Source of the DNA: Tubiluchus corallicola | Taxonomy: Eukaryota > Animalia > Priapulida | Length of the DNA: 64,000 bases | Direction of reading: 5' to 3' | Assembly (NCBI GenBank): GCA_030141605.1 | Contig: JAQGDQ010000627.1 | Location: forward strand, 1-64,000 | In this document: one piece after another, positions 25,501-30,393 of the stretch | Layout of the letters: each line of letters opens with the position of its first letter | Position numbering within the stretch: position 1 is the first letter of the stretch | The notes under the pieces: model-generated | Seen by the model: the letters and a program-made list of their open reading frames with translations, nothing else | The model's database searches: none | Told to the model about the DNA's origin: nothing | Position numbers and translations under genes: made by a program

Positions 25501-28500
25501 AGCTGTGATGCTTCTCAATGGAGAAGGAATGTAGGGGCAGGCCCAATATTCCTTTTTTGCTTGTTGCGTTTGTGTTTTGTGCTTGGGCAATGTTTTGTTT
25601 TAGCCGCTTTAAGTATGAATGAGCGTGAATTTCTCTCTGCATCTGTAGTCAAGACGCGAACGTAACTCATAATGGATTACAATGTATAATTAACATTTGA
25701 GATGATCCTGCTGTTGCTTACTGTACTGGCTGAATGTTCAATGTACAATAATGTTATGTACTGAGAATGGTGGGGAAGCATGCAAAAATGAAAGTTTTTG
25801 GAAGACAATTTTTCTGTGGCCAAAAGTTTACCTGGACATAAAATTTGGATAGTGAATTTTAGAAGCTGAGGAGAATCAAGGTAAGGATAACTTTGTTTGT
25901 TCTTTTATATTGTTGTTTGTTATTATTTGCTTCATATTTTATTTGTGCAGATTGTTTTATTTAATTTTTTCTTTTTGTTGTGTTTTAGTTGTTAAAGATC
26001 TCAGCGGTTTTCCTTAGTGGCACCCGATATTCTGCTAGCTCTGTGTATTTCTTTTCTGAAAGTGCACTGTCTGTACGGCATTAAGTATTACACTGTACCG
26101 TACGAATTTTATACTCCTTCTTTCTAATCGGATGTATATTTATTTTTTCTTTTGTTGTTGATACCTTTTTCTTGAACTTTTACTGTTATTTTATTAGAAA
26201 ATTGTGTTAATAAAATGTAACTGTAATCATTAAGAGATTTATGTATTTTTTCTAACATTTATTGTAGCTGCATGGTGGCTTTGATGGACCAGTCATGACT
26301 AATTAATAATAAGATTAGTTTTTGGCTGTAAAAAATTCAATGATAGGCAAGATAATACAAGAAGGTTGGGATTTTGTATTTTTAGTCTAACACCTTCTTG
26401 ATGTAGCTGTCAAATGTACTGGGTTCTACTTTCTTTGCTTTAGTTTAAAGTTAATGATATTCTTCCAGGTTTTCAAATATAGTTTCTATATCAGCACATT
26501 GTTTTAGACATATGTAACAAAATAATACATGATATACATCATTTATGCATACTTGATTCGACTCAGAAAAAGCAGATCTCTAGGCAGTAAAAAATTTAGT
26601 TAGTTTTTAGTAGCTGTGCAGGGACAATGATAATGTCAAAAAGGTTTTTCATAACTCGAGTGGAGTATTGAACAATGAGGAAATTAATTGAAATACTGTA
26701 GGCATTTGGTAGTCTCTTATGTTTTGTGTTATTTTGATTACAGCAAGCTATGAAAGTTGGAGGTGTCGACAGGTTGACGGATACATCGAAATACACTGGT
26801 CAACATAAAGAGAGATTTGATGAAAGCGGTAAGGGCAAAGGCATAGAGGGCCGAGAATATGTGGCAGAAAATGCTGGATATGTCACTGGTTATAAGGAGA
26901 AAGATTCCTACGACACAAAGCATTGAATTCAACTTTGTTGCATATCCGAATCGTACAGCCACAGCTTCTGCTGTTAACAAGACGTAATCCAAAATCAACT
27001 AAAAATGCCTCGGATAATTAAGAACTTGGTTATTTACACTTTCTGGTTAGGAAAGTTTTTATAATCATTTCTGACGTCTTGCTTGTAACTTGTATTAAAG
27101 CACCTTTTTGCAAGAACTATTTTGTTTTTTGACCGAGTGTTTGGGCAAATATATTTTTTTCCTGTTAACTTTAAATCAAGTTTTCAGTTTATTAATATAT
27201 ACCATTTTTTAAGATTTTATTAGTGGTATTATTTTTTTATAAAATTTTAAATAAAATTGTATGAAATTATTATAATGATTGTCTTTGTTATGGTGTGTAA
27301 TGTGTAATATTTGTGATCAAAATTGCAAAAAATGATTGGGCTGTAGTTTTACTCTGTCTCAGATTTGAGTACAGGTGAAAATTTTCAAGAAGTTGGCCCT
27401 TGACTGGCTCAGACATTAGGAACTAGAACTTAGCCAACTCGCGCTCAAGACATATGAGTTCCTCAAGACTTTCTTGGAGACTCCGACATTAACATTGTTG
27501 TGTAAGGCAGTTTTATGATCTTATTGCACTGTCTAGTTATGTTTCTGGTGGGTTTTCTTATTCACTAAATTTGTTGGCATAGCTGTGTAAGCTGTCGCAC
27601 TCTACACAACAAATCAGTTACTACCAGTTTTTATGGATGGAACTTTGCTTTATTATCAACAGTGAATTTGGAAGACTGGATAAAAACCAGGTAAATAGCT
27701 ACAACTTTTTGCCAAATTTTTGCATATTTATTTTTGAACCATATTGTTACTTATGACAGTATTTTCAAAAATTTACTTTGCCTTATATATTTTCATTGTT
27801 TTATGAACTATTTATTTTGTTTTTAGCAGTTGATGATGTATCCAGCTTTTCCCTGGTCCTGAGTTCAACTTCCTTTGTGTGTCTCCATTTTATTAACGTT
27901 GTACATTGTATTTTACCTTATTGCCTGCTATTCATTCTTATTACAATAACATTTTATTATTGTTTCTTCACTTTATATGTAACAAATTTTTGCTCTGGTT
28001 TTCTTAATCTGTTTTATACGTTATGGTGTATAAACATACGTTAGTAGTTTTTGTTTTCTCTATTCAGTCGATTAAAATATTGTGATAAGCCAAACTGTAA
28101 ATTTGTTTATAAATGGTTCAACATTATATTTTTCTAAGATCAATATATTGAATAGGCTTATGTATTAATATGGAGTGGTGCAAATATTAAAGATCATTTT
28201 GTGCAACATTTAATTTACAGGCAAAAATCTGCCTCTGAATTTAATGTAGTAATTTTAGATACTAATAAGTATTTGGTGTGGCTACATTCACACTCTCACT
28301 CGTAATCTGTAATTATATCGTTGTGGTTTACAGCTAATACTCTCTATCTTTAACTTTAAAATTTTCAACCATTTTCATTCCTGGTTTTTGTTTTGCATTG
28401 ATTTAAACACGTGCTGGTTTTTTTATGTATTACAGTGTTAATGAATTGAAATGTAACTCCCACGTAATTCTCGTTTTATAATGATGAAAAAAGATGAAAT

Positions 28501-29977
28501 TAAAATAGTTCATCACACTTTCTACATTTAAAATAAATAGAAACCTAATCTAATTTAGATTACCAAATTGACATAGTATCTTTTTATACAGGTAGTTTTT
28601 TAATGTAATTTTTGTATGTCTAAGTAATATGCATGAGAGTAAACAGACAAAAGTGCTTGCAAAATAGTTGTTCAAAATAATGAACAGAAAGAAGGGTCAG
28701 CTTTAGTTCATTGAAAATAACAAGTAAAAAACATTTGGCATTGTATTAGTTAACATTCACACTCAGTGTATACAGTCTCTATTTTTGGCAAAGTACCTTT
28801 CTATACAGGTAGTTTTTAATGGAATTTTTGTATATCTAAATAATGTGCATTAGATTAAACAGATAAAAGTGTTCACAAAATTGTTATTAAAAATAATGAG
28901 GAGAAAGAAGGATCAGCTTTAATTCACCGAGAATAACAAAAAAAAGACATTTTGGCATTATATTAGTTAAATTCACACTCAATGTAGACAGTTCGTATTT
29001 TTTAAATAATTGTGATATTGCTTTTGCAGCAAGCTGTTAAAGTTGGTGCTGTTGACAGGCTGACAGACACGTCACAATACACAGGTTCTCATAAAGAACG
29101 ATTTGATGAAAATGGGAAAGGCAAAGGAATGTCGGGTCGAGAACATGTAGCAGACTATGCGGGATACGTTACTGGTTATAAGGAGAAGGATACCTACGAC
29201 ACTCAACATTAAATTAGTTTTTTCTCTTTTACAGTGGGCGTGCCATTTCTTATAAATTTTTGTTACTAATAATTCGTTTACAGCTTTTATATTTAGCATA
29301 AATTCAGTTAAGGCTGTTGTTTGAAGGAAATAGATTTGTGAAATCTGAGATACAACTTCATTTATCTTCATAATTAAATTTTGATAATTATGTCTGTAAA
29401 TACAGAACTAATTGTTATGTAAATATCCCCCTTTTTAACATTACGAGAGAAACTGTTAGCTAGGTCCTATATATGTAGTGAAAAAAGTTCTCTTGGCAAT
29501 TAAATCAAGTTTCTAAAAGTATGTGCAAGTTGATGTCAACATTACTGAAATGTAAACAACACCAACCAGAGCTGCTTCAGCTTTGTTAATTGTACCACTT
29601 TATTATGAATTATGAAATAAAACTGAATTGAAATAATTGCATGTGTTAGAGTACTTTCTGCATACTGAAAGATTAGGTAATATAATTAGATTAAAATATA
29701 ATGTATACAAGGTATCTTTACACATGCATAAGTTTACAAACGTGTCATTTATCCAATCCATAATAATGATATCTATGGACAATTATTGGACATGTGAAGA
29801 ATCTGCAGTGAGCTTATCATACGAATGGTGAATCCACGGCTAATTGATGATGCAGCATTCACTGACTGTTCAGTGTTAATCAATGTTTCCTTCCTCCTTT
29901 CACCTGCCTAAATCTGTGATCCCTCATTATGTGAAGGAATCAGGTATCTTTTTCTTTCACTCACACGCTCTACTCTA

Positions 29978-30041
<64 letters not shown>

Positions 30042-30393
30042 CTCTCTCTCTCTTTCTCTCCCTGCCTGTATTGTCTCCTTCTAACATTTGCATTTGCCGA
30101 ATTGCTAATAAAAATTTAATTGGATATTATAAAATAAAATTACTCTGAAACAGTATTAACTGATATTATTGATGTACCAATATAGCACATCATTATTTTT
30201 CCAGAAAACAGCTAAATCAGGCGCTGTGAACCGATTGACAGATACGTCAAAGTATACTGGTGCTCACAAAGAACGATTTGATGCTAGCGGCAAAGGTAAA
30301 GGAAAAGAAGGTCGCGAGTACATTGACGATAAATCTGGCTATGTGACAGGCTACAAAGAGAAGGACACGTATGAAAAGAAAACTAAAAAGTGA
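22589..30393 (+). CDS. TPPP: Tubulin polymerization-promoting protein (p25-alpha family, TPPP3-like), spliced, with three alternative last exons
   Basis: Exons 22589-22785 (MAAAGNG...FEAFAKFGD...[29 protein letters not shown]) and 24024-24204 ([18 protein letters not shown]...PGTAGAT, phase 0 end), then 26744-26926, 29030-29212 or 30205-30393, each with RLTDTSxYTGxHKERFD and GKGKGxxGR; 186-188 aa products. Confidence 0.92.
22908..23300 (+). repeat. Three diverged ~120-130-bp tandem units, each ending in a (GAT)n tract
   Basis: CTATGATAGTGCAAAATTAA-like unit starts at ~22910, 23029 and 23161. Confidence 0.75.
23595..23778. mobile_element. Tc1/mariner(pogo)-like MITE
   Basis: TA-flanked TIRs CAGCCAAACCT ... 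AGGTTTGACTA. Confidence 0.6.
24307..24978 (+). mobile_element. MITE family 1, copy C (TPPP intron)
   Basis: Colinear with 3024-3690 and has the same TIRs (TGTGTGCTTGCAAACCAG...TATGCAAAGCACATAT). Confidence 0.82.
26744..26926 (+). CDS. TPPP: TPPP alternative terminal exon A (partial p25-alpha domain)
   Basis: ttacag acceptor, phase 0; [66 protein letters not shown] at 27094 and AATAAA at 27250. Not in the supplied ORF track. Confidence 0.85.
28585..29003 (+). repeat. ~217-bp diverged tandem duplication immediately upstream of TPPP exon B
   Basis: 28585-28786 vs 28802-29003; both begin TATACAGGTAGTTTTT and end ...ATTCACACTCA.TGTA.ACAGT. Confidence 0.85.
29030..29212 (+). CDS. TPPP: TPPP alternative terminal exon B (partial p25-alpha domain)
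   Basis: ttttgcag acceptor, phase 0; [66 protein letters not shown] at 29616. Confidence 0.85.
29968..30062 (+). repeat. (CT)n microsatellite upstream of TPPP exon C
   Basis: Direct inspection. Confidence 0.95.
30205..30393 (+). CDS. TPPP: TPPP terminal exon C (most canonical copy)
   Basis: tttttccag acceptor, phase 0; [63 protein letters not shown]-rich 3'UTR-like sequence with AATAAA at 31668 and 31731. Confidence 0.9.

What the first reader, a model, noticed from the sequence alone, without database searches (positions are those of the whole stretch)
26744..30393. One TPPP gene with a three-way cassette of duplicated alternative last exons (swappable microtubule-binding tails)
Seen: a single set of N-terminal exons (22589-22785, 24024-24204, ending in phase 0) is followed by three intact homologous exons (183, 183 and 189 nt). 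Each has its own phase-0 acceptor, stop codon and downstream AATAAA/ATTAAA. All keep RLTDTSxYTGxHKERFD, GKGKGxxGR and [10 protein letters not shown] despite many third-position differences, which suggests purifying selection on every copy. They differ in the Rossmann-like motif (GIEGR, GMSGR, GKEGR) and in tail charge (DTKH and DTQH vs basic EKKTKK). Known: this segment is the 'partial p25-alpha' region involved in tubulin/microtubule binding, and vertebrates diversify TPPP through three separate genes (TPPP1-3). Inference: this lineage makes three TPPP variants from one locus by alternative splicing and polyadenylation, each with its own 3'UTR. I do not know of a published description of this arrangement.
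Basis: partly seen in the sequence, partly recalled or inferred. Interest (0 to 1): 0.88.

Follow-up and report, generated by a model that had tools for sequence, protein, structure and literature searches.

The report
One TPPP gene, three alternative tails
An invertebrate gene for the microtubule-bundling protein TPPP carries three intact, long-diverged copies of its last coding exon, so it likely makes three proteins that share one core but differ in their microtubule-binding tail.

Summary
One TPPP core (exons 22589-22785 and 24024-24204) is followed by three homologous last coding exons: A 26744-26926, B 29030-29212, C 30205-30393. Each splices in frame and has its own stop. No second core exists in the window. 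All three copies are under purifying selection: A/B dN 0.115 against dS 1.17, and differences avoid family-conserved columns. The best-kept stretch between the A and B 3' flanks holds AATAAA in register. A spliced contig from a related organism shows intron 1 removed; another covers exon C. No junction from exon 2 into any tail was seen, so use of each tail is inferred. The mechanism is a known kind: duplicated alternative last exons, with 77 human cases. Ten paper searches found no such report for TPPP, and 0 of 80 fetched TPPP loci carry two tails. The tails span nearly the family's whole charge range (0, -1, +7), which likely tunes microtubule binding; this is untested. The core is closest to a horsehair-worm TPPP.

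The parts
22589..22785 (+). TPPP coding exon 1 (ATG to phase-2 donor); N-terminal part of the p25-alpha core
   Evidence: Pfam p25-alpha 71.4 bits; joined GT..AG to 24024 in run X2
24024..24204 (+). TPPP coding exon 2, ending in phase 0; common donor for the three tails; has an insertion shared with Gordionus TPPP
26744..26926 (+). Tail exon A (60 aa, TGA), net charge 0, pI 6.9
   Evidence: covered with 0 differences by run X1, which looks like DNA
27216..27271 (+). Stretch kept between the A and B 3' flanks; holds AATAAA at 27250, with a GU-rich run downstream; likely poly(A) signal of A
   Evidence: (D4)
29030..29212 (+). Tail exon B (60 aa, TAA), net charge -1, pI 6.3; sister copy of A
   Evidence: one synonymous difference in run X1
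29582..29638 (+). Matching stretch in the B 3' flank; holds AATAAA at 29616; likely poly(A) signal of B
30205..30393 (+). Tail exon C (62 aa, TGA), net charge +7, pI 9.7; the older-diverged copy
   Evidence: 30234-30505 covered by a contig of run X2 with 7 of 8 listed coding differences synonymous
30394..31760 (+). Likely 3' UTR of C, with AATAAA at 31668 and 31731; bounded by the convergent CMIP-like gene (end inferred)

Best explanation
This is one ordinary three-exon animal TPPP gene whose last coding exon was duplicated twice in tandem, and whose exon-2 donor is likely spliced to one of the three copies, each ending at its own likely poly(A) site, to give three proteins with one core and different tails. 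Shown: the anatomy, the open frames, a single core in the window and selection on all three copies. Inferred: C split first and A and B later (synonymous sites are saturated against C; dS 1.17 between A and B). The duplicated unit included the 3' flank with its poly(A) signal. Because every copy ends in a stop, choice is mutually exclusive without any special RNA structure: cleavage after A gives A, skipping A gives B, skipping both gives C. Predicted and untested: the basic tail C (+7) binds the acidic tubulin tails more strongly than the near-neutral A and B, and the three 3' UTRs let cell types set which form is made and where. One locus would then do part of what vertebrates do with separate TPPP genes.
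For: In-frame splice to all three, with canonical GT/AG. One core only. The intron phases match the family's conserved layout: phase-2 first intron and a last exon starting at the same position in human and fly (PMC8180608); 63 of 80 fetched loci have AG right before the same tail start. A/B: 23 synonymous and 15 non-synonymous differences, dN 0.115, dS 1.17, Fisher p 2e-9; against C p 2e-21 and 1e-14. Of 23 columns that differ among A, B and C, 1 is family-conserved, against 26 of 37 invariant columns (p 4e-7). Departures at the 27 conserved columns: A 1 (T to S), B 0, C 0. In a neutral-decay simulation such intactness has P under 0.05 beyond about 0.07 (A) or 0.05 (B) substitutions per site. 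The best local match between the 500-nt flanks of A and B is the AATAAA stretch, reached by 8 and 5 of 500 shuffles and 0 of 73 other window stretches. Intron 1 is spliced and exon C is present in run X2. The tail matches TPPP residues 158-215, the disordered basic region whose deletion weakens polymerisation and halves Bmax (PMC4542545).
Against: No call showed exon 2 joined to any tail, so the central step is inferred from sequence. Loss of function of A or B within the last 0.05-0.07 substitutions per site cannot be excluded (substitution-only model with assumed rates). The flank match is short, AT-rich, includes the AATAAA itself, and was first spotted in a repeat list before being tested; a global alignment of the two flanks was reached by 14 of 300 shuffles. 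The amino-acid differences are all at variable positions, which fits drift as well as specialisation. No relative with the same arrangement was found: 0 of 80 loci, and the 5 Gordionus cluster members share one tail. The whole genome is not held, so other TPPP genes elsewhere are unknown.
Confidence: 0.8

Rival explanations
1. Only one tail (probably C) is used today; A and/or B are recently silenced relics.
For: No junction into A or B has been shown by any search. The simulation leaves room for a recent loss: P 0.58 (A) and 0.26 (B) at 0.02 substitutions per site.
Against: Both keep frame, acceptor, stop position and 26-27 of 27 conserved residues. The poly(A)-signal stretch is kept in both. 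The one difference seen in B in run X1 is synonymous (one site only).
Confidence: 0.11
2. All three tails are used, but the proteins are equivalent; selection keeps the copies for their different 3' UTRs (level, timing, localisation of the mRNA). This shares the splicing mechanism of the best explanation and differs only on why.
For: Differences avoid conserved columns. A and B have nearly the same charge. The 3' flanks differ in length (about 0.33, 0.41 and 1.35 kb to the AATAAA) and share almost no sequence.
Against: C differs from A and B by 7-8 net charges. Among 103 distinct family tails only 4 are at or below -1, 16 at or below 0 and 3 at or above +7. An electrostatic binding mode has been suggested for this region (PMC4542545).
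Confidence: 0.3
3. A and B belong to separate short transcripts with their own promoters, making 'partial p25alpha only' peptides.
For: Such proteins exist, mostly in protists (PMC3498115). A has a Met at its third codon.
Against: A and B keep a phase-0 acceptor at the family's conserved intron position. B has no early Met. No other core exon lies between them.
Confidence: 0.04
4. The tails are chained in one protein, like the 'fungal-type' TPPP with the C-terminal part twice.
For: Fungal-type TPPPs occur in sponges and a coral (PMC12731214).
Against: Each copy ends in its own stop. The only consensus-like donor inside A is phase 1 (26829), which would shift the frame; B has none by the pattern used.
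Confidence: 0.02
5. The copies are an assembly artefact (uncollapsed haplotypes).
For: None found. Run X1 may be the sample behind the assembly, so it is not independent support.
Against: The copies are only 66-79% identical and their flanks are nearly unalignable. Run X1 holds separate contigs over A, B and C, each with its own flanks.
Confidence: 0.01

Closest known systems
Long-type animal TPPP (p25-alpha, PF05517), e.g. human TPPP1/2/3 and Drosophila ringmaker
   Same: Three coding exons, phase-2 first intron, last exon coding the disordered ~60-aa tail with GxGxGxxGR (PMC8180608, PMC3498115).
   Different: The last exon is present three times, each copy with its own stop. The described ways of varying TPPP are separate paralogues, truncated genes lacking the last exon, and in-frame doubling.
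Tandem exon duplication-derived C-terminal substitutions, e.g. human CAPZB and TPM1 (PMC8373072; PMC3228551)
   Same: Homologous last coding exons chosen by alternative poly(A) use; 77 human C-terminal cases, some with three or more copies.
   Different: TPPP is absent from the main text and the supplementary table of the human catalogue. Use of each copy is not yet shown here.
Drosophila 3' variable regions: PGRP-LC, pip, CG42235 (PMC6191721; PMC9013439)
   Same: A constant 5' part joined to one of several tandem homologous 3' cassettes.
   Different: Those use competing RNA pairings; no common docking site was found here. That paper notes simple 3' clusters need none.
Fungal-type TPPP and partial-p25alpha repeat proteins (PMC12731214; PMC3498115)
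   Same: The same C-terminal module is the unit that gets duplicated.
   Different: There the copies sit in frame in one protein; here each ends in a stop.

Membership tests
Long-type TPPP | Full p25-alpha domain (core plus tail) and no other domain | tested here: met
   Pfam hits on exon 1 and each tail. Exon 2 has no Pfam p25-alpha hit alone but matches a family core profile at 28 bits. Products are 186-188 aa.
Long-type TPPP | GxGxGxxGR motif in the C-terminal part | tested here: met
   Present in A, B and C.
Long-type TPPP | Three coding exons with conserved intron positions | tested here: met
   Phase 2 then phase 0, as in PMC8180608; 63 of 80 loci share the tail acceptor position.
Long-type TPPP | Binds and bundles microtubules | not testable with these tools
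   Inferred from family membership.
Duplicated alternative last exons (C-terminal tandem exon substitution) | Homologous exons in tandem behind one shared donor, same phase | tested here: met
Duplicated alternative last exons (C-terminal tandem exon substitution) | Each copy has its own stop and poly(A) site | tested here: inconclusive
   Stops shown. Signals present and kept in register in A and B. Cleavage sites not observed.
Duplicated alternative last exons (C-terminal tandem exon substitution) | Transcripts exist for more than one copy | tested here: inconclusive
   Only contigs of two runs could be laid; none bridges exon 2 to a tail.
RNA-pairing-controlled 3' variable region (PGRP-LC type) | One docking site pairing with a selector before each cassette | tested here: inconclusive
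   Best common duplex -16.1 kcal/mol; 10 of 20 shuffled controls were as low. Conservation across species could not be tested.
Fungal-type TPPP | C-terminal part twice within one reading frame | tested here: not met
   A stop ends each copy; no phase-0 consensus-like donor in A or B.

The most novel reading that the evidence does not exclude
A non-arthropod ecdysozoan has rebuilt the vertebrate TPPP1/2/3 division of labour inside one gene. A strongly basic tail and two neutral tails are swapped by cell type or stage to set how tightly microtubules are bound and bundled. This would be a natural tail-swap experiment on a fixed core, isolating what the disordered tail's charge does.
Probability: 0.3. 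Interest if true: 0.65.

Novelty: new member of a known kind. Interest (0 to 1): 0.45.

Why it matters
Reviews describe invertebrates as generally having one TPPP (PMC12047068, PMC3498115). If all three tails are spliced, this animal gets three from one gene, by a route not found in the TPPP papers searched. The duplicated exon is exactly the disordered microtubule-binding tail, and the copies keep the conserved residues while spanning net charge -1 to +7. They make a ready set for testing the proposed electrostatic binding of TPPP to tubulin. Practically, gene predictors may report one tail and miss the others. The splicing mechanism itself is not new.

Tried and rejected
No whole genome is held. 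No RNA holder was listed for the stretch. Run X2 (RNA by guess, about 92% alike, so a related organism) has no contig over A, B or 24106-24204, even at 80% likeness; this lack of cover says nothing either way. A homologue search with exon 2 found 0 of 114 candidates. The Atlas gave only leads under 0.9. A search for same-core, different-tail pairs among 110 fetched proteins gave one pair, P0122/P0123, which are orthologues from two catfish species. The five Gordionus cluster members differ only in their last few residues; a 90% cluster could leave out an isoform with another tail. Inverted repeats showed nothing beyond AT-rich chance-like pairs; the docking-site test was at shuffle level; Rfam gave 0 matches. 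Upstream flanks of A, B and C share no similarity over 500 nt. The tail tree (quick search, 149 rows, 62 columns) joins A and B (SH-aLRT 91) but cannot place C, so a single origin of all three is not shown by it. Earlier findings by place, sequence and TPPP words returned nothing. PMC7072251 passages and PMC11642885 passages added nothing on isoforms. No structure was predicted: the tails are disordered in the family and single exons would not be informative.
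Full report
Observation. The sequence holds a TPPP coding exon 1 at 22589-22785, exon 2 at 24024-24204 and three candidate last exons: A 26744-26926, B 29030-29212, C 30205-30393. 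All junctions are GT/AG. Intron 1 is phase 2, intron 2 is phase 0, and each of the three joins gives an open frame to its own stop. Each tail matches Pfam p25-alpha positions 102-153 at 70-75 bits. tblastn and profile searches built from fetched homologues find one core and three tails in the window, so these are not three whole genes. The neighbours are an ABC1-kinase gene upstream on + and a gene with a C-Maf-inducing-protein PH domain downstream on -; the names ADCK5 and CMIP are my reading of those hits.

Are the copies real? They are 66-79% identical in DNA, far beyond haplotypes. Run X1, which covers introns and so looks like DNA, has separate contigs over A (0 differences), B (2 differences, 1 gap) and C (0 differences). 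It may be the sample behind the assembly, so it is not independent support.

Selection. A against B shows 23 synonymous and 15 non-synonymous differences: dN 0.115, dS 1.17, ratio about 0.1. Synonymous sites are saturated against C, with dN 0.20-0.22 (Fisher p 2e-9 to 2e-21). I aligned the copies with 113 single-tail homologues out of 124 fetched (84 distinct). Of 23 columns that differ among the copies, 1 is at least 90% conserved in the family, against 26 of 37 columns where they agree (p 4e-7). At the 27 conserved columns A departs once (T to S), and B and C never. A substitution-only simulation gives P 0.042 for A at 0.07 substitutions per site and P 0.039 for B at 0.05, so neither copy has been free for long. 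A very recent loss is not excluded.

3' ends. AATAAA occurs 1.09 times per kb on this strand, so its presence proves little. More telling, the best local match between the 500-nt flanks of A and B is 27216-27271 with 29582-29638, and it holds the AATAAA of both in register. It was reached by 8 and 5 of 500 dinucleotide shuffles under two scoring schemes and by 0 of 73 other window stretches. A global alignment of the flanks was weaker, 14 of 300. The match is short, AT-rich and was noticed before it was tested. The A signal has the most GU-rich downstream stretch of the 12 AATAAA sites in 21-32 kb (18 GT/TG pairs against 3-9). C's signals at 31668 and 31731 lie just before a minus-strand AATAAA at 31803 that likely ends the convergent neighbour.

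Expression. Run X2 is RNA only by guess and about 92% alike, so it comes from a related organism. One contig skips 22786-24023 with GT..AG ends, and another covers 30234-30505. Of the listed differences, 9 of 9 in exon 1 and 7 of 8 in C are synonymous (the table was cut by 16 rows). No contig bridges exon 2 to a tail, so use of A, B and even C as spliced partners of exon 2 is inferred.

Lineage and spread. The best match to the core among 292 fetched proteins is TPPP of the horsehair worm Gordionus: 50% over 117 aa, 109 bits against at most 82 for other named proteins. A 28-row core tree pairs them (92/80) inside a clade with arthropods (95/86). No named nematode, priapulid, onychophoran or tardigrade was among the rows, so 'non-arthropod ecdysozoan' is as far as this goes. 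The five Gordionus cluster members share one tail. Of 184 confirmed matches in metagenome contigs the best 80 were kept, and 0 of 80 hold two tails. That test is limited: 63 have the intron, only 20 of those have 2.3 kb or more downstream, and many are near-duplicates.

Mechanism. One donor faces three acceptors, each followed by a stop and a likely poly(A) signal. Cleavage after A ends the message there; skipping A or both gives B or C. No docking site was found, and simple 3' clusters are not expected to need one (PMC6191721, section 17). The tail corresponds to residues 158-215 of a 219-aa TPPP chain. In human TPPP, residues 158-219 are disordered, basic (pI 10.15) and form one of two microtubule-binding sites; their deletion weakens polymerisation and halves Bmax, and electrostatic binding was suggested (PMC4542545, passages). 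Here net charge is 0, -1 and +7 (pI 6.9, 6.3, 9.7). Among 103 distinct family tails, filtered from 292 proteins for one motif and 52-70 aa, the range is -1 to +8 with median +3; 16 are at or below 0 and 3 at or above +7. This TPPP has no long N-terminal extension, so the tail should weigh heavily (inference). I put 0.8 on three-way splicing and about 0.3 on the strong form, cell-type-specific functional specialisation.

What is known. The three-exon layout is the family norm (PMC8180608, first third of the text; PMC3498115, passages). Described TPPP variants are paralogues, truncated genes, fungal-type and double-long forms (PMC12731214, first fifth and passages); the word 'splic' does not occur in the main text of the latter two. 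Homologous alternative last exons are a known class: 77 human C-terminal cases (PMC8373072, passages), CAPZB (PMC3228551, passages), PGRP-LC and pip (PMC6191721, abstract; PMC9013439, passages). TPPP is not in the human table (supplement searched). Ten searches listed no paper on duplicated TPPP last exons. Most subscription journals are outside the library, and the supplements of the TPPP surveys were not read. PMC12047068 was seen as passages.

Verdict. The feature is real and well supported at sequence level. It is a new member of a known kind, apparently new for the TPPP family, with the key splice junctions still to be shown. Interest 0.45.

Noticed in passing
window 26826-26834 and 30293-30301: Consensus-like phase-1 donor sites lie inside exon A and exon C, within the glycine motif. 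Use of the one in A would shift the frame and cut the motif off; the X2 contig reads through the matching place in C.
   Followed up: partly
window 28568-29002: A 216-nt unit repeated twice (84% alike) ends 27 nt before the acceptor of exon B.
   Followed up: no
   Followed up: no
window 31731-31810: TPPP and the minus-strand CMIP-like gene appear to end tail to tail within about 70 nt; an X2 contig begins at 31784 with 18 unlaid letters.
   Followed up: partly
window 24307-24982: A high-copy interspersed repeat in intron 2, also at 63-650 and 3024-3691.
   Followed up: no
window 11251-14221: A 47-nt satellite of about 63 copies between the ABC1-kinase gene and TPPP; a 40-nt array lies at 38407-39079.
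   Followed up: no
L077:539-712 and 5509-5679: A TPPP tail followed 4.8 kb later by another TPPP exon 1: tandem whole-gene duplication in another animal.
   Followed up: no
window 22541-22588: A pyrimidine-rich AG acceptor lies about 25 nt before the ATG, suggesting an upstream non-coding exon or trans-splice site.
   Followed up: no
P0125 (Strigamia maritima, T1J2B3): A 287-aa TPPP with two cores and one tail, an architecture I did not see among the types in the passages read; it may be a fused gene model.
   Followed up: no
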